DNA from: a virus
Taxonomy: Duplodnaviria; Heunggongvirae; Uroviricota; Caudoviricetes
DNA length: 26,321 bases
IMG/VR virus record: IMGVR_UViG_2671180458_000015
Direction: 5' to 3' (one strand)
Below, piece after piece: positions 1 through 8,000 of the stretch. Numbering within the stretch: the stretch's first letter is position 1; the number at the start of each line of letters is the position of its first letter. The position numbers were made by a program, and so were the translations under genes. A model generated the notes under the pieces. It was not told where the DNA came from and ran no database searches. It saw nothing but the letters and a program-made list of their open reading frames with translations.

Positions 1-546
1 CTACGCACGTCCAACCAGGTGCTTCGCACTCCTGTACTTAAGACCGTTTTTACCAAGTCCCATATACAGAAAGGTGTTCACCGTCTTCGTGTTTATACCC
101 ATTTCACGGGCAAGATGGCAGGGCTTTGACTCCCGGTACACGTATCCAAACATCACCACCATCTCGGACATCGTCAGAGGTCGCGCATACGTATTATGTA
201 CCCACTCACCATTCCGGATTTTCCTGTACGTCTCCAGGCGCCCCGTAACATCTTCCGCATCAATCTGAAGATAACGGCGTCCCTGAAACATGCAGCACAT
301 CAGCCTGCCAAGGAGGGCATCACAGATTATCACCCATGACTCATCATGTGCCGGTACACTCTTCCTGTTCTCTGGTGTAAAAAATTCCCTCGCCAGTATT
401 ATCCTGTACCCCTCAAGCATCTGCTGCAGGCCATACTCCAGATAACGGTTGCGGGTCGCCAGAATCACTTTCATCGCTGCCACCTGTTTCATGCTCACAT
501 GAGAAAAAACGGCAGACAAAACTCCACGCCTGCCGTCATGCTTCAT
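1..546 (-). CDS. LuxR/GerE-type HTH transcriptional regulator-like protein (cargo gene); start uncertain
   Basis: Complete ORF with stop at 1..3. The C-terminal segment LTMSEMVVMFGYVYRESKPCHLAREMGINTKTVNTFLYMGLGKNGL resembles a LuxR-type helix-turn-helix. The N-terminus (MKVILATRN...) looks like a degenerate receiver domain without the acidic pocket. Candidate starts are at 546, 492 and 474; 474 has an AGGTGG-like RBS. Family call is from motif recognition only. Confidence 0.4.
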   Translation of the reverse strand: MKHDGRRGVLSAVFSHVSMKQVAAMKVILATRNRYLEYGLQQMLEGYRIILAREFFTPENRKSVPAHDESWVIICDALLGRLMCCMFQGRRYLQIDAEDVTGRLETYRKIRNGEWVHNTYARPLTMSEMVVMFGYVYRESKPCHLAREMGINTKTVNTFLYMGLGKNGLKYRSAKHLVGRA

Positions 547-560
547 GTCACTGTCAGCAA

Positions 561-1712
561 TTAAAACTCAAAGTTCACACCAGCGTTCCAGGATACATCG
601 CCATCGCTCGCTGCCACACCTGCTTTCGCTGCTGTCTGCTCATTGAAACGGTAACCAACACCCACGGCAACAGCCTGTTTGTCACTGTAACCACCAACGG
701 CAGCAGTGGCGTTGAATTTACCCACACTGTACGGCTGGAAAAGACCTGCCAGCGCTGCGCTCTGGGCTGCCGCACGTTTCATCTCTTCGTGGTTTTCATT
801 AATCTGACGCTGATGACTGTTCAGACGTGTGTTGTGCTCCTGCAACTGACGGGAAGTGGACTGAATAGCCTGTGTATTTTTAGTAACCCGGCGGTCAACA
901 CTACCAACAGTAGCATCAATACGGTCTGTTCTGCCGGACAAAGCTACAAGCCCATCATTAACAGCCAGGGTTTTGCTGGCTCCTTCTGCACGGGTCAGGG
1001 TTCCGTCGGAGTTAACACCAACTGTCGTTCTGGAGTCTGTATATTCACGAGACTTTTTCGCTTCAACCACAAGGCGGGTATTCGTATCCTGAGCCAGTTG
1101 CTCAACACTGTCTTTTACACGGTCAACCTGACGAACGGTTGCAGCATCTGAGGGACGAGTACCGTCACTCAGACCACCAAGCACCCGGGTTTTATAAGCC
1201 TTACCCGGCTCTGCTTCATAACCGATATAAACCTCATTGTCACGGGTTGTGCGTGAATTAGCTCCTAATGCAACACTGTTTTTATTTGTTACTGTTGCCT
1301 TTGCCCCTAACGCAGTACCTTCTGTTGCATCTTTATCAACTTTGGCTCGGTTACCTGCTGCCGTGCCATATGTAGCCGTGTTATCAACAAATGCAATGCT
1401 TCCCAGGGCTGTAGATGCATCTGCATAAGCATATGTTCCCCCACCTAAAGCCACACTTTGCTGTCCTCGTGCTGCAGACCATGATCCCACTGATGTTGCA
1501 ATTTCTTTATCCGCGCTGGCCCCTGTACCAACAGCTAGCGCAATCTCTCCATCCGCGCGAGCTGAAGCAGAAAGATCTGTATTTTCTGGGATACTCCCTG
1601 AGGCGATAAGCTTATTCTCCGATGCATCCTGAGCCAGAACGCCAGCGCTTACACCAAATAAAATACCGCCAATAACAACGGAAATAACACTTCGTGATAA
1701 AGACTTATCCAT
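561..1712 (-). CDS. Trimeric autotransporter adhesin, YadA/Eib-like (prophage-borne immunoglobulin-binding protein family candidate)
   Basis: 383 aa with an N-terminal signal peptide ([29 protein letters not shown]), a Thr/Ala/Gly/Ser-rich repetitive passenger, a coiled-coil stalk (…[40 protein letters not shown]) and a YadA-type C-terminal beta-barrel anchor ending GVNFEF. GGAG-type RBS upstream. Sits after the tail fibre genes, the usual cargo position. Confidence 0.7.
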
Positions 1713-2086
1713 GTATGATTCCTCATGAATTTATTTGTATACAAACAAACCGAAATACATCGGATGAATAAAGAAAATCTGATGTATTTCGGCACCCATG
1801 AGGATATTCCTAAAAAACCCCACAAATTTAATTTTAATTTTTAGGAAATATCTTAGTGTATTTTTTACACCTTTACTCCAAATACTGGAGCACAAGGCAG
1901 AGCAATACTAAATAAAAAACTGATCTCATGCCGCTGAATATTTCACATCTGCTTACACTGTAATTTCTGAGCAACATCACAATATCATCAAAATTTAACT
2001 GTTTAGTTCAGCCATGATATTTCCCTGCGTAATTATTACGACTCTTTCAGTAAAAACAGAAAGGGACAATCCCTCTTTTCCACCAA

Positions 2087-2758
2087 TTACTCCTGTGCCC
2101 AGCCAACCCTGTATGCCAGGATCTCATCCGCACTGGTCAGCTTTTCCAGCTCCTTCTTCATGGTGCGCTGGCGAATGTGGATTTCCATCCCTTTAGTGAA
2201 CATCGCCTGCTCTGCCGCTTCACTCAGCGCAATAAGCTCTTCTGCTGTCACCGGCACATCATTGTTTTCCGCATCCGTCCAGAAAAACGCCTCCGGCAGT
2301 TTCCCCGCTTTCGCTGCAGCCACCGACGGCTCAAGACGCGTCTGCGTTGACTTCCCGTAGTCCCATTTACGCCCATTGTGCTCAAACGTGTAGTTCGCCG
2401 CTTCCATCGCATTACGCCAGGCGTTAATTTCATCGCCCTTCATCCCGCGCGCTTTCTCCGCGGTCAGCAGGTCCGTGATTTTCTCCCCGTCAAAACCCCA
2501 GCGCCCCGAGATGTCAGCTTTGCGGTTTTCTTCCGTATCTGCAACCTCTGCCACACTCTGGTTTACCGGCCACAGCATAGAGACATCCTTACTTATGCTG
2601 GTGATTATACCGTTACTGTCATAAACCAGCTTCAGCGTCTCCGCTGAAAATAACGACTGACACTCATACCAGTCCTGACCATCCTCTGATTTCAGGTACA
2701 TCGCACCCGGCACATCAGGTTTTTCAGGGGTATAGTGCTTCAGGTTTTTAATAATCAT
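2087..2758 (-). CDS. tfa: Tail fiber assembly protein (P2 gpG / Mu U-like N-terminal domain)
   Basis: N-terminus MIIKNLKHYTPEKP…SEDGQDWYE…LKLVYDSNGIITSISKDVSMLWP…VAEVADTEENRKADISGRWGFDGEKI parallels the conserved N-terminal region of P2 G-type tail fiber assembly proteins. Lies directly downstream of stf. Start at 2758 chosen for its GGAGAATAAT RBS; the six-frame ORF extends to 2806. Confidence 0.7.
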   Translation of the reverse strand: MIIKNLKHYTPEKPDVPGAMYLKSEDGQDWYECQSLFSAETLKLVYDSNGIITSISKDVSMLWPVNQSVAEVADTEENRKADISGRWGFDGEKITDLLTAEKARGMKGDEINAWRNAMEAANYTFEHNGRKWDYGKSTQTRLEPSVAAAKAGKLPEAFFWTDAENNDVPVTAEELIALSEAAEQAMFTKGMEIHIRQRTMKKELEKLTSADEILAYRVGWAQE

Positions 2759-2821
2759 ATTATTCTCCGTATTTAATGCCCGGTTGGGCATAATGGAACG
2801 CAACAACCAGTGTGAGTCACG

Positions 2822-4558
2822 TTATTCCGTTTTAATCGTTACCCACTGGCTTCCATTGTGAACCTGAAGAAAGCCATAAGTTACAGCAGTAATTTTGTAA
2901 GCCTGTGACCGGATATTCAGAATTACAGCACCATCAGGGACTATATTCATGCCGGGAATCGTTGGTTGTGCTCCATCCAGTGACGGGAAAGTAATCACCT
3001 CATGGTGTGCGACTTCTTTCTTCCCTCCGATACGCAGCCCACTAACCAGCGAAGTTGCGCCATCTTTCCCCGGAGGCCCCATCGGTCCCGGTTCACCGCG
3101 CTCACCTTTGGGACCTGCCAGACCTGCTGGACCTGCTTCTCCCGGATCGCCTTTGTCACCTTTTGGCCCCTGTGCGCCTGCCGGGCCAGCAGCTCCCGTA
3201 TCCCCTTTAGGTCCCTGCGGTCCTGCTGGACCTGCTGGCCCCGTGTCCCCTTTCTCTCCTTTCGGACCGGGAACACCACCTCCTGCTGCAGCCTCTTCTG
3301 CCTTTGTTTTCGCTTCATTTGCCACATCCATTGCCGCCTTCACGGCCTTCGGCGTGGCTGCCTTTGTTTCGTCATTACTGTCAGTATCACTGCTTAACTG
3401 CACCACACCTTTCTGCGTCGTGCTGGCATCCCGCTGGCTGACCGTATCCGGTTTGTTTTTTGTGCTGTAATCCACCCGCCAGTGGAAATACTGTGTGTCG
3501 CCGTAAACCGTACAGGTACAGACCGTGCCATTAATAAACCCCGTTGCACCGTATTCGCCAATGGTGACCCGGACTATGGCAGCCTCATACGTTCCCATCA
3601 CCTCAATGACACAGCCACCCAGATTGAGTTTTCCCGGCCCGACATCCGTGATGACTTTATTGAATCCCGCAGGCAGTGATGCCTTCATCATCCAGTAAGG
3701 CTGGTCAAATGCCCCTTTTTCTTTCAGCCAGGCGACAAACTCACTCGTGGTCCATTCACCGGCCCCCGTATGAATGTCCCGCCCGTATACTCTGGCTGCT
3801 CCCACGGTGTTCAGAAACTTCACCTTATCCGGGATATCGTCACCGTTTTTCGCTTTCTCCAGGCATCCGTCCGCTTTGTCCATTGCCGCTTTCACCGCTT
3901 TCGGGGTGGCTGCCTTCGTTTCATCATCACTGTCCGTTGCGCTGCTTAACTGCACAATTCCCTTCTGTGCCGTCGTCGCATCCGGCCCTCCCGGCTCACC
4001 TTTTTCGCCCTTCTCTCCCCGCTCACCTTTCACACCCTGAAGCCCCTGTGGTCCTGTCTCACCACGCTCACCCTTTGGCCCCCGCTCGCCGGTATCGCCT
4101 TTTGGCCCGGGAATACCCTGTGGCCCCGTGTCTCCCTTATCCCCCTTCGGTCCCCTCGCATTCTCTGCCCGTTTCTTCGCTTCCTCTGCACTCGCCGCTG
4201 ACGCTTCCGCACGTTTCAGGATTTCCGCGGCCACCGCTTCCAGCTCTGCAAGGGCTTTCGGGTAATACTGTGCATCCTCCAGGTCCATCAGAAATTTATT
4301 CAGCGTTCCCGGTGCCGAATCCGCCTTCACCAGAATGTCACCCACATATGACGGCGCGTACCCTTCCGTGTTCAGCGTCACCCGGTACAACCCCGGCTCA
4401 ACATCCATACTGTAACTGCCGGTTTCCCCCGGCTGACCATACGCCACCGTGGTGACAATCACCGTCTCCGTTGTGCGGCGCGCTTTCAGCTCTATCGTGC
4501 ATCCCGGTACCGGTTTTCCCGTACCATCCTTCAGCACACCCGATATTCTGACTGTCAT
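2822..4558 (-). CDS. stf: Side tail fiber protein (lambda Stf-like) with collagen-like Gly-X-Y repeats
   Basis: N-terminus [28 protein letters not shown] matches the lambda Stf N-terminus ([17 protein letters not shown]…LKARR). Two blocks of GXY collagen-like repeats and two copies of the tail-fibre repeat motif (KGIVQLSS…[15 protein letters not shown]). Confidence 0.85.
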
Positions 4559-4701: not shown

Positions 4702-4842
4702 TTACTGCTTACACTGTAAGAACGCCGCAATCTCCGCGCCCGCTATCCGGAACCGGAACTCGCACAGTGAAGTGTGGGTGATCCAGATAATGAGCACTAC
4801 CGTGATACAAATCACGGTGGTTTTTAACGGTTTTTGCGACAT
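4702..4842 (-). CDS. Hok/Gef-family type I toxin (small membrane toxin), not in the ORF track
   Basis: Hand translation of the minus strand gives a 46-aa ORF, MSQKPLKTTVICITVVLIIWITHTSLCEFRFRIAGAEIAAFLQCKQ, with AAGGAG RBS 9 nt upstream of the ATG. One TM helix followed by the Hok family signature (SLCE.R.R…E.AAF), most similar to HokA/HokB-type sequences. Stop TAA at 4702..4704. Confidence 0.7.
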   Translation of the reverse strand: MSQKPLKTTVICITVVLIIWITHTSLCEFRFRIAGAEIAAFLQCKQ

Positions 4843-5043
4843 AAACGCTTGCTCCTTTTACGGAGAGGCGCTAACCTTTCACTTGCTTAGGATGAATGGT
4901 CAGGCCTCGGGTTAAACATGAATGTTTGTCCGGGGCCTTTTCACATCCGGCCTTCAGGTGTTCCCTCCGGCCATCAGCCAAAGGCACCCGCGCATACTGT
5001 ACGGTTTTTGTCTCCTTCCGGCAATCCGTATTCCGGCTGCCTG

Positions 5044-8000
5044 TCACGATCTCCGGGTAAAACCGGAATCTGTCGATTTCGCCACCATGAGAGTAAAGGC
5101 GTCATATCTCCACCGCACCAGCTCTCTCTTTCTCCCTTCCACATCCCCCATATTGCCAGGACCACCTTCAACTCTCATTGTCACTGTAATCCGTGTATCT
5201 CCCCCTCCTGCCACCACATCCCATACTCCTGAAACGGTGTCCCCGAGGTTGGTGTACGTGTTAACAGCATTGCCATTTCTGTCAAAACGACCTGAAAAAC
5301 CCGTATCAGCAATTCTCGGTTCTGCCTTAATGACAACTCTTCCGTTAATCTCTATCGTCAGTGTTCCTGAATAGAAAAAGAAGGGAAGGAGTATCAGCTT
5401 GCGATCAAACGAAACATCATCAGCAAGAGATACCTCCGCCTTAAAGATGACATAACCCTCTCCATACTTGTGGTTCGTAATATGGAGCGTGCCATCACGA
5501 GGTTCGAAGGAATAGCCCTTGACGATATCACCGATGATTCTGTCTGCGCTAATGGTTCCTTTAACAACGCAGTTTTCTGCAATGGTCACGTTATTCAGCG
5601 TGCCCGAGTTCGCACTGATATGTCCGCTGATGTCAGCATTGCGGGCCGTCAGCCTGCCCTCCGGCGTCAGGGAGAACGTCGGGGGATTGCCGGACGAGGT
5701 GATGCTTACTGCAAACAGTCGCTTCAGGAACACATCGTTCATGAACAGCTGATTCCCCTGCGCCACAAACAGCGGCGTGGTGTTGCCGTTCTCCGGGTTA
5801 ATCATCGCGATACGGTCCGCCTGCAGCAGTATATTGCTCAGGGGCTGGCCATCAGCATCCTCAATCCCCGCACCTATACCGGCAACATACGGAATGCCGT
5901 TTTTTGTTTTCTGCACCTTCAGCATGTACAGCGCAGCCAGGTCGTTATTTGTGTCTGTCTGCACCCGCTGTATCTGCTGTATGGTGGCGCTCTGGTCTTC
6001 CAGGGTTTTACTGACCGTCTGCGTGATTTCATTGCGGGTTTCTGTGATGGTGGTCTTCATCTCCGCCATCTCATCGTCAAGCTGGCTGTTATCAATCAGC
6101 TCCCACATCCCCTGTGCCAGATGTGTCTTCCCGATTTCTCCTCTGAAAAAGTCCAGATACCCTTCCGCATCATTGCTCGCCCGGCCACTGGCTTCCACAA
6201 ACGCAGATTTCCCCACCAGGTTGACGCTGCGCACATAAAACCAGAAATCCTTCCCCGGCTTAATGTGCGGGCCGGAGACACTCCACTGGCTGCCTGTCCC
6301 CAGATAACGGGCAAAGGTTTCCACCTGTGCCATGTCCGTGATGCGTTTTTCTGAGAACCAGAATTCAGACTGTACCGTCGGGTCATACACCGCCAGCACC
6401 GGTACTGCTGTTATCTGATAATACCCCGACGTCAGCTCAATGCTGTCCGGTGCTGCCGGGGCGTTAATCCGGAACGTGGTGGTGGCAGGTTCGCCCTGCT
6501 GGCCGTAGCTGTTTATCGCCCTGACCGTCAGGGTGTATTCCCCCAGAGGCAGGCCACTGAAACGGTGCTCCGTGTCGGCAGTGATGGCGCTGGTCACCAG
6601 GCGGCTGTTTTCACCACTGCCACTGGTCAGGCGCAGACTGAAGCGCACGCCCTTCACCACCCGCGGCGTGTCCCATTTCGCCAGCGCCAGATACTGGCCG
6701 TCTGAGGCACTCACCTCCACCGTGAGGTGCTGCACTGCCGGCGGGATGACGCTGTTCAGTGAGCCGGACATCGGCTCAAAGCGGGCCCCGTTATCCACGA
6801 TGGCTTCTTTTTCCGGTACGTGCTGCACTGCCGTGATGGCAAAGGTGCCGTCCGTGTTTTCCCGGATGGAAACACAGCGGAACAGGCGACGACGCAGTGA
6901 CGGCAGGGAGAGTCCCCACACACCGTATGTCGCCACGCCATCAGGCAGAATGCTGACCTGTATCCGGTCAGGGGCGGGTTGTGCAGTGATGTCCACGCGC
7001 ACCGGCTTACCGCTGCCGTTAATCAGGTTCACCGTCGATGTCCCTGTTTCCGGCAGTGTCACCTCACGGTCCAGCGTCAGGGTACGGCTGGCGGCATCGA
7101 TGGACAGGATACGTCCGCCGGTCAGGGTCCCGGCATAGTCGTTATCACAGATTTCAATGATGTCACCGGGCGTGTGCCGCAGCCCCTGTGACCCGAGCGT
7201 GAAATCCACCGTCTGCGTTTCCAGCAGTTCTGTCTTTATCACCCACAGTCCGGCACGGTGGGCCTGACCGCGGCTGGTACAGCCAAACGCATCCATCTTC
7301 AGCAGATTGCGCCCGTAGCGCAGGATGGCGTCCGGGTCTTCCACCAGTTCAGTGGAAGTCTGCCAGCCGTTCTGCGGGTCGGTGTAATTCACCTCCACCG
7401 CCGTGTGCCGGTCCTTCAGGGCACTGAAGCTGTAGCGGAACCCCACGCCGTTATCATCCACCACCACATCGCTGTTGGTGTACGGCCACACCACATCCGA
7501 CGGACGGTCCTGAACGAACGTCAGCGTCTGGCCGTTCCATACCGGCATACAGCGCATCGCCGAGCAGAAATCCCCCAGGACATCCCACACCTTACGCTGC
7601 TGTGACAGGTACGCATTAAAGGTCATCCGCGGCTCTGTGCCCCCGAAACCATCCGGGACCGTCTGGTCGCAGTACTGCCCGATGGCATACAGAGCCCACT
7701 TGTCCACATCCGCCGCCCCCAGGCGTTTTCCCATGCCGTAGCGCGGGTGGGTCAGCATGTCCCACAGGCACCAGGCCGGGTTATTGCTGTATGCCGGTTT
7801 CAGGCTGCCGTCCCAGATACCGCTGTAGGTGCGTTTTTCCGGGTCATAGTTTGACGGCACCTGAATGATGCGACCGCGGATATGGTAGTTCACCACCATC
7901 TGCTGGCCACCGAACTGCTCCGCATCCACCTGCAGCCCCACAATGGCCGTGTTCGGGTAGCACTGTTTCACATCGATGATTTCGGTGTATGACGACCACA

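What the first reader, a model, noticed from the sequence alone, without database searches (positions are those of the whole stretch)
1..2086. Cargo island after the tail fiber genes: Eib/YadA-like trimeric autotransporter adhesin plus a LuxR-type regulator-like gene
Downstream of tfa there is an AT-rich 370-bp spacer, then a 383-aa protein with signal peptide, repetitive Thr/Ala/Gly passenger, coiled-coil stalk and YadA-type membrane anchor (ends GVNFEF), then a 157-181-aa protein with a LuxR/GerE-like C-terminal HTH and a degenerate receiver-like N-terminus. Prophage-borne trimeric autotransporters in this position include the E. coli Eib immunoglobulin-binding proteins, which confer serum resistance. 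The adjacent regulator-like gene is not something I recognise and could be a dedicated regulator of the adhesin or of host genes.
Basis: partly seen in the sequence, partly recalled or inferred. Interest (0 to 1): 0.6.

Follow-up and report, generated by a model that had tools for sequence, protein, structure and literature searches.

The report
Prophage Eib adhesin plus TosE-like regulator
The end of this E. coli prophage carries a known kind of cargo: a short variant of the Eib antibody-binding surface adhesin, followed by a small unstudied gene that I identify as a relative of TosE, a LuxR-type regulator that sits behind another E. coli adhesin gene.

Summary
Window 561-1712 (-) encodes a 383-aa trimeric autotransporter with a YadA anchor. 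Its passenger matches the EibD crystal-structure construct at E 7e-94 and is 79% identical to EibE. It lacks the roughly 135-aa N-terminal domain of EibC/D/E/G but keeps the IgG-Fc Asp (D266).

Window 1-474 (-) encodes a 157-aa protein; the 181-aa reading is an artefact. It is the "ORF-156" annotated in GenBank records AF151091 and AF151674-6 downstream of eibA/C/D/E, so the gene arrangement is already on record.

What is new here:
- ORF-156 folds (AF2 pLDDT 92) as a reduced, non-canonical receiver-like domain plus a GerE/NarL-type HTH.
- It is a full-length homologue of TosE of uropathogenic E. coli (E 1e-29). TosE is a LuxR-family gene directly 3' of the tosA adhesin gene and is linked to motility suppression.
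- It is under purifying selection (dN/dS 0.1-0.2).
- It follows YadA-anchor genes at a fixed 86-94 nt across a terminator. It also occurs without them, upstream of kpsF and next to nleA.
- A conserved RcsB-box match lies 143 nt upstream of eib.

What the regulator acts on remains untested. Overall this is a new member of known kinds, of moderate interest.

The parts
1..474 (-). orf-156 homologue: 157-aa TosE-family protein with a reduced pseudo-receiver domain (aa 1-~92) and a LuxR/GerE-type HTH (aa ~100-153). The stop codon is at 1-3.
   Evidence: - ORF and conserved start.
- 99% identical to ORF-156E.
- AF2 pLDDT 91.8.
- TosE homology, E 1e-29 and 131 bits.
- dN/dS 0.09-0.21.
508..537 (-). 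Intrinsic-terminator-like GC-rich hairpin plus T-run between the eib stop codon and the orf-156 start codon. The wider inverted repeat spans 497-548.
   Evidence: - Terminator scan.
- Inverted repeat I2.
- RNA fold -28.9 kcal/mol, z -3.7.
- The same hairpin is annotated as stem_loop in AF151091 and AF151674-6.
- Its sequence is conserved in all TAA-linked loci.
561..1712 (-). eib-type trimeric autotransporter adhesin gene (383 aa). It is an EibE-like variant without the N-terminal domain.
1632..1712 (-). Predicted Sec signal peptide (aa 1-27, [27 protein letters not shown]|QD). It differs from the MSKKFT... signal peptide of the classical Eibs.
   Evidence: Read directly from the sequence and from the alignments. 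No signal-peptide predictor was available, so the cleavage site is inferred.
915..917 (-). Codon of Asp266 in the motif GRTDRID-A. It is equivalent to EibD D387 and EibG D391, the residue required for IgG Fc binding.
   Evidence: Position mapping. Mutagenesis of EibG D391 is described in PMC13534694.
564..740 (-). YadA-type membrane anchor (aa 325-383), ending in GVNFEF.
   Evidence: - Pfam PF03895, E 9.5e-17.
- YadA anchor structure 2LME, E 1.8e-18.
1713..2086 (.). AT-rich 374-bp regulatory spacer upstream of eib.
   Evidence: - Composition.
- Homologous to the upstream regions of eibA/C/D/E and other eib-type genes.
1842..1855 (.). TAAGATATTTCCTA (minus strand): a perfect match to the RcsB box TN(G/A)GAN4TC(T/C)NA, starting 143 nt upstream of the eib ATG.
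   Evidence: - It is the only match in the 26-kb window.
- The same position (-138..-145) carries a match in 16 of 37 TAA loci, including eibC/D/E.
- Consensus taken from PMC7913699.
- Binding has not been tested.
1799..1812 (.). TAGGAATATCCTCA: a second box-like element with one mismatch, 43 bp downstream of the first and conserved as GGAATAtCCT.
1750..1792 (-). Hairpin with 16-nt arms and an 11-nt loop, 38-80 nt upstream of the eib ATG. It is conserved as a structure, with different arm sequences in other eib loci. Its role is unknown; it could be an insulating terminator, a leader attenuator or an operator.
   Evidence: - Inverted repeat I1.
- RNA fold -19.5 kcal/mol, z -3.5.
- Equivalent hairpins of -15 to -23 kcal/mol in 8 other loci.
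- stem_loop features in the GenBank records.
1734..1745 (.). Palindrome TTTGTATACAAA inside the best-conserved block of the upstream region (-37..-15 from the ATG). It may be a core promoter (TATACA) or an operator. The SD sequence GAGGAA lies at 1719-1724.
   Evidence: (I3).
2087..2806 (-). Context gene: an ORF-191-like DUF4376 / tail-fibre-assembly-like gene. RefSeq places its start at 2758.

Best explanation
**Setting (shown).** Window 1-2086 is the cargo ('moron') end of a lambdoid prophage integrated next to dinI/prfC of a LEE-negative STEC-type E. coli. It carries the classical eib cassette: an AT-rich regulatory spacer, the eib gene, a terminator hairpin and orf-156.

**The adhesin (shown).** The 383-aa product is an Eib-family trimeric autotransporter, closest to EibE. 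It lacks the N-terminal domain and has a different signal peptide.

**How the adhesin works (inferred from the family).**
- It is exported by Sec.
- Three C-terminal anchors form the outer-membrane barrel.
- The beta-roll head, saddle and coiled-coil stalk are displayed on the surface.
- The stalk segment around Asp266 binds IgG Fc.
- This gives aggregation or chain-like adherence and complement resistance.

**The regulator (shown).** orf-156 encodes a 157-aa protein under purifying selection. It has a receiver-like fold that lacks the acidic pair and a GerE/NarL-type HTH. It is a full-length homologue of TosE, the LuxR-family gene directly 3' of the tosA adhesin gene of UPEC.

**How the regulator works (inferred).**
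- It is transcribed by read-through of the eib terminator, so it is made at a low level in step with the adhesin.
- It acts as a phosphorylation-independent transcription factor.
- Like TosE/TosF, it adjusts other surface programmes to the adhesive state. Flagellar motility is the documented TosEF phenotype.
- Feedback on the eib promoter, possibly through the conserved RcsB-type box and with RcsB as partner, is possible but unproven.
For: **Eib identity**
- YadA anchor, E 9.5e-17.
- EibD 2XQH match, E 7e-94.
- 79/72/70/59% identity to EibE/D/C/A.
- Locus collinear with AF151676/5/4 and AF151091.
- D266 corresponds to EibD D387 and EibG D391.
- EibG and relatives confer complement resistance.

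**Prophage context**
-.

**ORF-156 fold**
- AF2 pLDDT 91.8.
- All top Foldseek hits are RcsB, EvgA, LiaR, DesR, FixJ or VpsT, with probability up to 0.99.
- Top viral hits are response regulators.

**TosE homology**
- BLASTP E 1e-29 over 152 aa.
- Family profile 131 bits.
- 45% identical to genes annotated as LuxR family.
- tosE lies directly after tosA in CFT073.
- The TosE/F association with motility suppression is stated in PMC5956150 and PMC10392849.

**Linkage and selection**
- The gap between the anchor gene and orf-156 is 86-94 nt in every TAA-linked locus, including divergent TAAs and a plasmid.
- dN/dS is 0.09-0.21.
- The DNA-reading helix (K130-T131-V132...L136-Y137) is invariant across all genomic contexts. 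This fits a target shared by all hosts.

**Terminator**
-.
Against: - No experiment bears on ORF-156. No paper in the searchable library mentions it.
- TosE was studied together with TosF, and no TosF-like partner gene is present here.
- The TosE function is itself described as 'unknown regulatory function'.
- Sequence profiles do not reach Pfam's GerE threshold.
- hhalign to NarL, RcsB, RcsA, GadE and DctR is not significant. The LuxR and receiver assignment therefore rests on a predicted structure and on TosE.
- Read-through of the terminator is inferred, not shown. No sigma-70 consensus promoter was found anywhere in 1-2900.
- Ig binding of a variant without the N-terminal domain has not been tested.
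- Some family members are pseudogenes or internally deleted.
Confidence: 0.7

Rival explanations
1. ORF-156 is a dedicated positive regulator of the eib promoter. [quoted passage not shown] That would overcome silencing of the AT-rich spacer. Because orf-156 lies behind the eib terminator, this would create positive feedback, which could explain the low and condition-dependent (static culture) expression of Eib.
For: - A perfect RcsB box is the only match in the 26-kb window. It lies 143 nt upstream of the eib ATG.
- The same position carries a match in eibC/D/E-type loci. The eibA type has TAAGGAAATTCCGA, which resembles the rcsA-promoter box TAAGGTTTATCCGA.
- The Lys of the KTV motif, equivalent to RcsB K180, is invariant.
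- Small LuxR-type proteins without phospho-acceptor chemistry that work as RcsB partners are established.
- The 168-bp upstream fragment used to drive eibG by Kotaka et al. would include both boxes.
- No regulator of Eib is known.
Against: - ORF-156 homologues occur with the same recognition helix but with no eib gene and no RcsB box nearby, at kpsF, hpaBC/perC and nleA loci.
- The 349-aa TAA locus has an ORF-156 homologue but a degenerate box.
- The box is conserved above average (0.86 against 0.72) but is not the best-conserved block.
- One pattern match per 26 kb is what chance gives.
- There is no sequence similarity to the known auxiliary regulators.
- The transcription start site is unknown.
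Confidence: 0.25
2. The 383-aa adhesin is functionally a Cla-like chain-forming adhesin that no longer binds immunoglobulin. It would be an Eib in ancestry but not in function.
For: - It lacks the N-terminal domain, as Cla and Yal proteins do.
- It comes from the same O128ab:H2 genomes in which Cla proteins were described.
- The Tyr next to the Fc-binding Asp (EibD Y388) is Ala here.
Against: - Cla proteins share less than 50% similarity with Eibs and lack the critical Asp. This protein is 79% identical to EibE and keeps Asp266.
- Ala at the neighbouring position is also found in EibG, which binds IgG Fc, and in EibA.
- Deletion of nearly the whole passenger of EibG preserved Fc binding.
Confidence: 0.15
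3. orf-156 is a decaying or functionless passenger ORF of the cassette, or a bona fide phospho-accepting response regulator of an unidentified kinase.
For: - Decay: there are pseudogene remnants in E2348/69 and short fragments in O157:H7, and 15 IMG/VR loci with an internal deletion of aa 79-118.
- Phospho-acceptor: Asp52 is invariant and aligns with RcsB D56 in a non-significant alignment.
Against: - dN/dS is 0.09-0.21 over dS up to 1.7.
- Intact copies are present in 184 complete genomes, with 30 invariant residues concentrated in the HTH.
- The acidic Mg-binding pair is replaced by Thr7-Arg8, and helix alpha5 and the conserved Lys are missing from the model.
- No kinase gene is adjacent.
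Confidence: 0.07

Closest known systems
EibE / EibD / EibC / EibG (E. coli immunoglobulin-binding trimeric autotransporters of P-Eib prophages; EibD structures 2XQH and 2XZR)
   Same: - Same YadA anchor, beta-roll head, saddle and coiled-coil stalk (79% identity to EibE).
- Same Fc-binding Asp.
- Same position after the prophage tail-fibre and orf-191 genes.
- Same upstream regulatory spacer and same downstream terminator plus orf-156.
   Different: - It lacks the roughly 135-aa N-terminal domain.
- It has an unrelated signal peptide (MDKSLSRS...).
- It lacks the 11-aa stalk insertion of EibC/D.
- Here orf-156 is the last prophage gene before dinI/prfC, with no orf-60 or eaa.
- Ig binding is untested.
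ORF-156A/C/D/E (uncharacterised ORFs in GenBank AF151091 and AF151674-AF151676)
   Same: Orthologous gene: 99% amino-acid identity to ORF-156E and 68% to ORF-156A/D. Position and spacing behind eib are the same.
   Different: Nothing structural. These ORFs were never assigned a fold or a function in any text I could search.
TosE (c0364) of uropathogenic E. coli CFT073, LuxR-family member of the tosRCBDAEF adhesin operon
   Same: - Full-length homologue: 30% identity, E 1e-29, with shared motifs T-x-N-x-YLE-x-GL, FF-x-P-[DE]-NR, VI-x-CD, LTM-x-EM and KTV...KNG.
- Same size.
- Encoded immediately 3' of an adhesin gene.
   Different: - The adhesin is an RTX protein secreted by a type I system, not a TAA.
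- TosE is followed by a second LuxR gene, tosF, which has no counterpart here.
- TosE is on a chromosomal island, not a prophage.
- The TosEF phenotype (motility suppression on overproduction) has not been tested for ORF-156.
RcsB auxiliary regulators RcsA, GadE, DctR (YhiF), BglJ and MatA/EcpR
   Same: - Small LuxR/GerE-type HTH proteins whose N-terminal domain is receiver-like but not phosphorylated.
- They control surface and stress genes.
- GadE and DctR share the T-(R/K)-(D/N) and VIID-type motifs at strands beta1 and beta3.
   Different: - There is no significant sequence similarity (hmmsearch and hhalign E >= 0.015).
- Interaction with RcsB is untested.
- ORF-156 is shorter: 157 aa against 175-207 for GadE, DctR and RcsA and 180 for EcpR. 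BglJ was not fetched.
Adhesin-operon-encoded motility repressors (PapX, FocX, MrpJ) and the LuxR-type AutA/AutR next to the UpaB autotransporter gene
   Same: Same logic: a regulator gene is attached to an adhesin gene and couples adhesin expression to other surface programmes such as motility, capsule and acid resistance.
   Different: - PapX and MrpJ have different folds (MarR-like and XRE-like); this is from my own knowledge.
- The LuxR-type gene next to upaB/hyxB in CFT073 (HyxR, together with HyxA) shows no similarity to ORF-156.

Membership tests
Eib (E. coli immunoglobulin-binding trimeric autotransporter adhesins) | C-terminal YadA-type trimeric membrane anchor | tested here: met
   - PF03895, E 9.5e-17, aa 325-383.
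- YadA anchor structure 2LME, E 1.8e-18.
Eib (E. coli immunoglobulin-binding trimeric autotransporter adhesins) | Passenger homologous to the Eib head, saddle and coiled-coil stalk | tested here: met
   - EibD 2XQH, E 7e-94, over aa 37-295.
- 79% identity to EibE.
Eib (E. coli immunoglobulin-binding trimeric autotransporter adhesins) | Conserved IgG-Fc-binding Asp in the stalk (EibD D387 / EibG D391) | tested here: met
   Asp266 lies in GRTDRID-A. Ala follows it, as in EibG.
Eib (E. coli immunoglobulin-binding trimeric autotransporter adhesins) | N-terminal domain present in canonical EibC/D/E/G | tested here: not met
   About 135 residues are absent. The signal peptide joins directly to the pre-beta-roll segment.
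Eib (E. coli immunoglobulin-binding trimeric autotransporter adhesins) | Prophage location after the tail-fibre and orf-191 genes, followed by orf-156 | tested here: met
Eib (E. coli immunoglobulin-binding trimeric autotransporter adhesins) | Non-immune binding of IgG (and IgA) Fc; serum resistance | not testable with these tools
   Needs an Fc blot and a serum-killing assay.
Cla (chain-like adhesins lacking IgG binding) | Less than 50% similarity to Eibs and loss of the Fc-binding Asp | tested here: not met
   It is 70-79% identical to EibC/D/E and retains Asp266.
LuxR/GerE HTH (Pfam PF00196) | Sequence match at Pfam's gathering score | tested here: not met
   - No hit for the window protein.
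- 1 of 29 family members matches, at E 0.056.
- The homologues TosE (19.7 bits) and TosE-like (22 bits) fall just under the 23.5 cut-off.
LuxR/GerE HTH (Pfam PF00196) | Four-helix GerE/NarL-type DNA-binding fold with the KTV recognition-helix motif | tested here: met
- K130-T131-V132 are invariant.
- This rests on a predicted structure.
Response-regulator receiver domain (CheY-like) | Alpha/beta receiver fold | tested here: inconclusive
   - The model has beta1-alpha1-beta2-alpha2-beta3-alpha3-beta4-alpha4 and lacks alpha5.
- There is no Pfam Response_reg hit. A weak RcsC_ABL hit has E 0.011.
Response-regulator receiver domain (CheY-like) | Phospho-acceptor chemistry: acidic pair after beta1, Asp after beta3, Thr/Ser after beta4, Lys after beta5 | tested here: not met
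   - Thr7-Arg8 occupy the positions of the acidic pair.
- Only Asp52 is retained.
- There is no equivalent of the Lys or of alpha5.
- The alignments used are not statistically significant, although they agree with one another.
TosE family (adhesin-linked LuxR-family proteins of E. coli) | Full-length sequence homology to TosE | tested here: met
   - BLASTP E 1e-29, 30% identity over 152 aa.
- Family profile 131 bits.
TosE family (adhesin-linked LuxR-family proteins of E. coli) | Gene located directly 3' of an adhesin gene in the same orientation | tested here: met
   - Gap of 86-94 nt after the YadA-anchor gene in 23 of 50 IMG/VR loci and in all P-Eib records.
- tosE lies 120 nt after tosA.
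TosE family (adhesin-linked LuxR-family proteins of E. coli) | Paired second LuxR gene (tosF) | tested here: not met
   - There is no further gene: the prophage ends at dinI/prfC.
- There is no significant similarity to TosF.
TosE family (adhesin-linked LuxR-family proteins of E. coli) | Suppression of motility / fliC on overproduction | not testable with these tools
   Needs a soft-agar assay and fliC/flhDC qRT-PCR.
RcsB auxiliary regulators (RcsA, GadE, BglJ, MatA, DctR) | Heterodimerisation with RcsB on a composite box that contains an RcsB half-site | not testable with these tools
   - An RcsB-box match upstream of eib is suggestive only.
- There is no sequence homology to known members.

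The most novel reading that the evidence does not exclude
ORF-156/TosE-like proteins would form an Escherichia-restricted family of small pseudo-receiver/LuxR regulators that travel on mobile elements. They ride directly behind, or next to, horizontally acquired surface factors: Eib and other short TAAs on prophages and plasmids, the TosA RTX adhesin, the kps capsule region 1, pap-adjacent islands and nleA effector loci. Acting as auxiliary partners of the host response regulator RcsB, they would plug those factors into the Rcs surface and envelope sensing circuit. The result would be activation of the adhesin promoter through the conserved RcsB-type box, together with repression of flhDC. This would explain why Eib is made in static, surface-like conditions and not in shaken culture.
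Probability: 0.15. Interest if true: 0.6.

Novelty: new member of a known kind. Interest (0 to 1): 0.35.

Why it matters
Eib-type adhesins give LEE-negative Shiga-toxin-producing E. coli aggregation, chain-like adherence and complement resistance. Their expression is low and strongly condition-dependent, and no regulator is known.

The gene that always follows them has been left as 'hypothetical' in every one of the 439 complete E. coli genomes that carry it. Recognising it as a TosE-family LuxR-type regulator with a non-phosphorylatable receiver-like domain gives two things:
- a concrete candidate for coupling adhesin production to motility, capsule or the Rcs system;
- simple experiments to test that idea.

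The 383-aa variant is also a natural test of whether the N-terminal domain matters for Ig binding and chain formation. None of this overturns current understanding. It refines the annotation of a known virulence cassette.

Tried and rejected
- **Pfam and NCBIfam on ORF-156.** No GerE or Response_reg hit, only a weak RcsC_ABL hit.
- **Sequence search against solved structures.** Single-sequence and profile searches gave only E about 0.15-0.5 to LuxR/GerE HTHs.
- **hhalign of the family profile.** Comparisons to NarL, RcsB, RcsA, GadE and DctR were not significant, E 0.019-0.18. They were used only for alignment register.
- **Exhaustive profile search of 1.8 billion representatives.** Only 38 hits, so no bridge to canonical LuxR proteins.
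- **afdb50 fold library.** Not available.
- **RNAalifold on the upstream hairpin.** MAFFT misaligned the arms, so it failed. It was replaced by single-sequence folds.
- **Rfam.** Nothing found.
- **Sigma-70 promoter scan.** No site in 1-2900, so the transcription start remains unknown.
- **Sandt & Hill 2000/2001 and Engstrom 2014.** These papers are not held. What I say about IgA binding by EibC/D/F, and details of the TosEF experiments beyond titles and citing sentences, comes from memory or from secondary sources.
- **Does the RcsB box travel with ORF-156 homologues outside eib loci?** It does not. This lowered the 'dedicated eib activator' reading.
- **Is the protein ClaA/ClaB?** Considered and rejected on identity and on Asp266.
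- **Are the LuxR-type genes next to upaB/hyxB related?** Considered and rejected: no similarity.
- **Xanthomonas pisi hit.** It is a 601-bp contig and most likely contamination.
Full report
**Observation**

On the minus strand the window holds a 383-aa ORF (561..1712) and an ORF at 1..546 or 1..474 (181 or 157 aa). A 374-bp stretch with GC 0.35-0.39 (1713..2086) separates them from a DUF4376 / tail-fibre-assembly-like gene (2087..2806) and a collagen-like tail-fibre gene (2822..4558).

The DNA is 100% identical to the chromosomes of the O128ab:H2 STEC strains JNEC-KY202 and JNEC-KY174. There it is the right end of a lambdoid prophage abutting dinI/prfC.

**The adhesin**

The 383-aa protein has a YadA membrane anchor (PF03895, E 9.5e-17, aa 325-383) and YadA-head repeats. 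Its best match among solved structures is the EibD passenger 2XQH (E 7e-94, aa 37-295), followed by the YadA anchor 2LME.

The DNA matches the GenBank records of prophages P-EibE, P-EibD and P-EibC. All of them, and P-EibA, show the order orf-191 / stem-loop / eib / stem-loop / orf-156.

Aligned with the classical proteins, it is 79, 72, 70 and 59% identical to EibE, D, C and A. Several features stand out:
- It lacks the roughly 135-residue N-terminal domain.
- It has an unrelated signal peptide.
- After the signal peptide it continues directly with the 'IASG...' segment that precedes the beta-roll in EibG-like 508-aa proteins.
- It lacks the 11-residue stalk insertion of EibC/D.

The 383-aa form is a recurrent natural variant. 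Several clusters at 91-99% identity exist, all E. coli and all named only 'YadA-like family protein'.

Kotaka et al. 2026 sequenced these very genomes. They showed for EibG that Asp391, aligned with the EibD Asp next to Tyr388, is required for IgG-Fc binding. They also showed that chain formation needs the head-to-saddle region, and that ClaA/ClaB lack this Asp and share less than 50% similarity with Eibs. In the window protein the motif is GRTDRID266-A267. The Asp is kept, and Ala follows it as in EibG.

I therefore file it as an Eib-family member lacking the N-terminal domain, and predict that it binds IgG Fc. I do not file it as a Cla. Ig binding and serum resistance cannot be tested here.

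**The second gene: the start codon**

The family alignment (29 sequences, 46-98% identity to the window protein) shows that nearly all members start at MKVILATRN..., which is the ATG at 474. RefSeq uses the same start. A good AGGTGG ribosome-binding site precedes it.

The 181-aa reading would run through a GC-rich hairpin followed by a T-run (508..537; -28.9 kcal/mol, z -3.7). That hairpin is a typical intrinsic terminator and is annotated as a stem-loop in all four P-Eib records.

The protein is 99% identical to ORF-156E and 68% to ORF-156A/D. No text in the searchable library mentions orf-156. It belongs to PHROG 6585, 'unknown function'.

**The second gene: the fold**

Sequence methods alone do not classify it:
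- There is no Pfam GerE or Response_reg hit for it or for its relatives.
- Matches to LuxR-type HTHs among PDB sequences are only E about 0.15.
- An exhaustive profile search of 1.8 billion representatives finds only 38 proteins.

An AlphaFold2 model built on the family alignment is confident (pLDDT 91.8, pTM 0.86). It shows beta1-alpha1-beta2-alpha2-beta3-alpha3-beta4-alpha4 followed by four helices. Fold searches agree on what this is:
- Every top Foldseek hit in the PDB is a NarL/FixJ-type response regulator: RcsB, EvgA, LiaR, DesR, FixJ, StyR, VpsT, VraR. E-values are about 1e-3 and probabilities reach 0.99.
- The top viral hits are response regulators as well.

In the alignments to NarL and RcsB the register is consistent, although the alignments are statistically insignificant. 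They show three things:
- The acidic pair after beta1 is replaced by Thr7-Arg8.
- Asp52 aligns with the phospho-acceptor.
- The KTV motif of the recognition helix is invariant. Its Lys130 is equivalent to RcsB K180, the main base-reading residue according to PMC7913699.

Helix alpha5 and the conserved Lys are missing. The domain is therefore best called a pseudo-receiver.

**The second gene: homology to TosE**

A tblastn search of plasmids found 43-45% identical genes that depositors had annotated 'LuxR family transcriptional regulator'. One lies near an 'RTX toxin' gene and is followed by a second LuxR gene. This pointed to the tos operon.

In CFT073 the gene directly after tosA is tosE (160 aa). 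It is a full-length homologue of ORF-156:
- BLASTP gives 30% identity over 152 residues, E 1e-29.
- The ORF-156 family profile scores it at 131 bits.

The shared motifs span both domains. TosF, HyxR/HyxA (next to the UpaB/HyxB autotransporter gene), EcpR, GadE, DctR, RcsA and RcsB are not detectably similar in sequence.

TosE itself reaches Pfam's Sigma70_r4_2 threshold and falls just short of GerE. According to the literature I could read:
- TosE and TosF are 'conserved LuxR family members' that suppress motility (title of Engstrom et al. 2014).
- They are listed among the regulators of fliC (PMC10392849).

**Distribution and linkage**

The family is confined to Escherichia and occurs in 439 of 5426 complete E. 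coli genomes, always as 'hypothetical protein'.

In 23 of 50 IMG/VR loci and in all P-Eib records, a YadA-anchor gene ends 86-94 nt upstream of it. The same terminator lies in between. This holds even behind divergent short TAAs and on a plasmid, next to a 1439-aa TAA.

Other members stand alone:
- about 450 bp upstream of kpsF of the group 2 capsule cluster;
- beside hpaBC and a perC-like gene;
- in prophage cargo regions next to nleA.

Fifteen loci carry an internally deleted remnant, and EPEC E2348/69 has a pseudogene. Intact copies are under purifying selection, with dN/dS 0.09-0.21 at dS up to 1.7. The recognition helix is nearly invariant in all contexts. This argues for a target or partner common to all hosts, rather than one private to each neighbouring gene.

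**The upstream spacer**

Eighteen distinct eib-type upstream regions align. Reading from the far end towards the gene, the shared plan is:
1. TAAGAnnnnTCCTA, 138-145 nt before the ATG. In the window this is 1855..1842.
2. An AT-rich stretch.
3. GGAATAtCCT (1812..1799).
4. A hairpin whose arms differ in sequence between loci but always fold, at -15 to -23 kcal/mol. In the window this is 1792..1750.
5. The best-conserved block, TTTGTATACA(A/G)ATAA. In the window it forms a perfect 12-bp palindrome at 1745..1734.
6. The Shine-Dalgarno sequence, then the ATG.

The first element matches the RcsB box TN(G/A)GAN4TC(T/C)NA (PMC7913699) and the RcsAB box TaAGaa|tatTCctA (PMC3950696). It is the only match in the 26-kb window, and 16 of 37 TAA loci have it at the same place. 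The eibA-type variant TAAGGAAATTCCGA resembles the rcsA-promoter box TAAGGTTTATCCGA listed.

One match per 26 kb is what chance gives. The chance of such a match falling inside the 374-bp spacer is about 1.5%. Its columns are conserved above average (0.86 against 0.72) but are not the best-conserved ones. The box does not accompany ORF-156 homologues outside eib loci.

I treat RcsB control of eib as a lead, not a result. No paper links RcsB with Eib. No regulator of Eib expression is known, although expression is higher in static culture, under microaerophilic conditions and at 37 C.

**Mechanism**

- Shown: the identities, folds, homologies, linkage, selection and motifs described above.
- Inferred for the adhesin: Sec export, trimeric barrel, surface 'lollipop', Fc binding around Asp266, aggregation or chain adherence, and complement resistance, as for EibG and relatives.
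- Inferred for ORF-156: only about 30 nt separate the terminator from its start codon, which leaves no room for a promoter. It is therefore most likely expressed by partial read-through of the eib terminator, at a low level tied to eib transcription. It would act without phosphorylation as a LuxR-type DNA-binding protein. By analogy with its homologue TosE, it would tune other surface programmes, with motility as the first candidate, to the adhesive state.

The rival reading is that it activates the eib promoter, perhaps with RcsB on the conserved box, as GadE-RcsB does on the GAD box. This is attractive and testable, but the stand-alone family members weaken it.

**Novelty and verdict**

The cassette and its position are on record in GenBank entries AF151091 and AF151674-6, and the adhesin belongs to a well-studied family. 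Four things are new:
- the recognition of a recurrent Eib variant without the N-terminal domain;
- the fold assignment of ORF-156;
- its homology to TosE, which generalises the theme of a small LuxR-type gene riding behind an adhesin gene from an RTX adhesin to prophage and plasmid TAAs and to other surface-factor loci;
- a conserved RcsB-type box in eib promoters.

This amounts to a new member of known kinds. It is of moderate interest and comes with a clear experimental path.

Noticed in passing
window 1750-1792 (-), and equivalent positions in L001, L003, L004, L005, L027, L029, L030, L033, L036: A hairpin 38-80 nt upstream of the eib start codon is conserved as a structure while its arm sequences differ completely between eib subtypes. 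It is followed by a U-rich tract and the highly conserved TTTGTATACA(A/G)ATAA block. It could be an insulating terminator, a leader attenuator or an operator.
   Followed up: partly
L020-L023, about 5001-5516, with kpsF starting near 5950-5970: An ORF-156/TosE-family gene (171 aa, 56% identical) sits about 450 bp upstream of kpsF, at the region 1 promoter of the group 2 capsule cluster. No adhesin gene is nearby. It is a candidate capsule regulator.
   Followed up: partly
L079 (E. coli E2348/69) 6001-6437; L049 4001-4543: ORF-156 homologues lie in prophage cargo regions next to the type III effector gene nleA. The copy is intact in some IMG/VR contigs and a pseudogene remnant in EPEC E2348/69. 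O157:H7 genomes keep only a 74-nt fragment.
   Followed up: partly
L012-L015 (plasmid contigs) 1-5483: On plasmids, an ORF-156 homologue follows a short TAA (254-367 aa). That TAA sits behind a 1439-aa TAA and a BamE/OmpA-domain gene, close to vapBC-like and ccdAB toxin-antitoxin genes and a Rep3 replicon.
   Followed up: no
L080 1777-2253 and L081 5001-6116: TosE-like genes (45% identical to ORF-156) occur between fimbrial clusters next to papI/papB. They also occur near an RTX gene, followed by a TosF-like second LuxR gene. Each is preceded by a conserved 68-aa hypothetical ORF.
   Followed up: partly
window 4702-4842 (-): A Hok/Gef-family toxin gene lies between the tail-tip gene J and the collagen-like tail-fibre gene (RefSeq annotation of the identical genome). 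Rfam reported no Sok-like RNA at gathering threshold.
   Followed up: no
window 2822-4558 (-): The 578-aa side tail fibre has two collagen triple-helix blocks and two Phage_fiber_2 repeats. It scores weakly against streptococcal and Legionella collagen-like adhesin models.
   Followed up: no
L025 (Xanthomonas pisi DSM 18956, 601-bp contig): The only non-Escherichia genome hit to the ORF-156 family is a 601-bp contig carrying the internally deleted form. It is most likely E. coli contamination of that assembly.
   Followed up: no
PMC13534694, section 10: The paper writes the EibD Fc-binding residues as 'D378-Y388'. In the EibD sequence (AF151675) the Asp adjacent to Tyr388 is residue 387, so D378 looks like a typographical slip.
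   Followed up: yes
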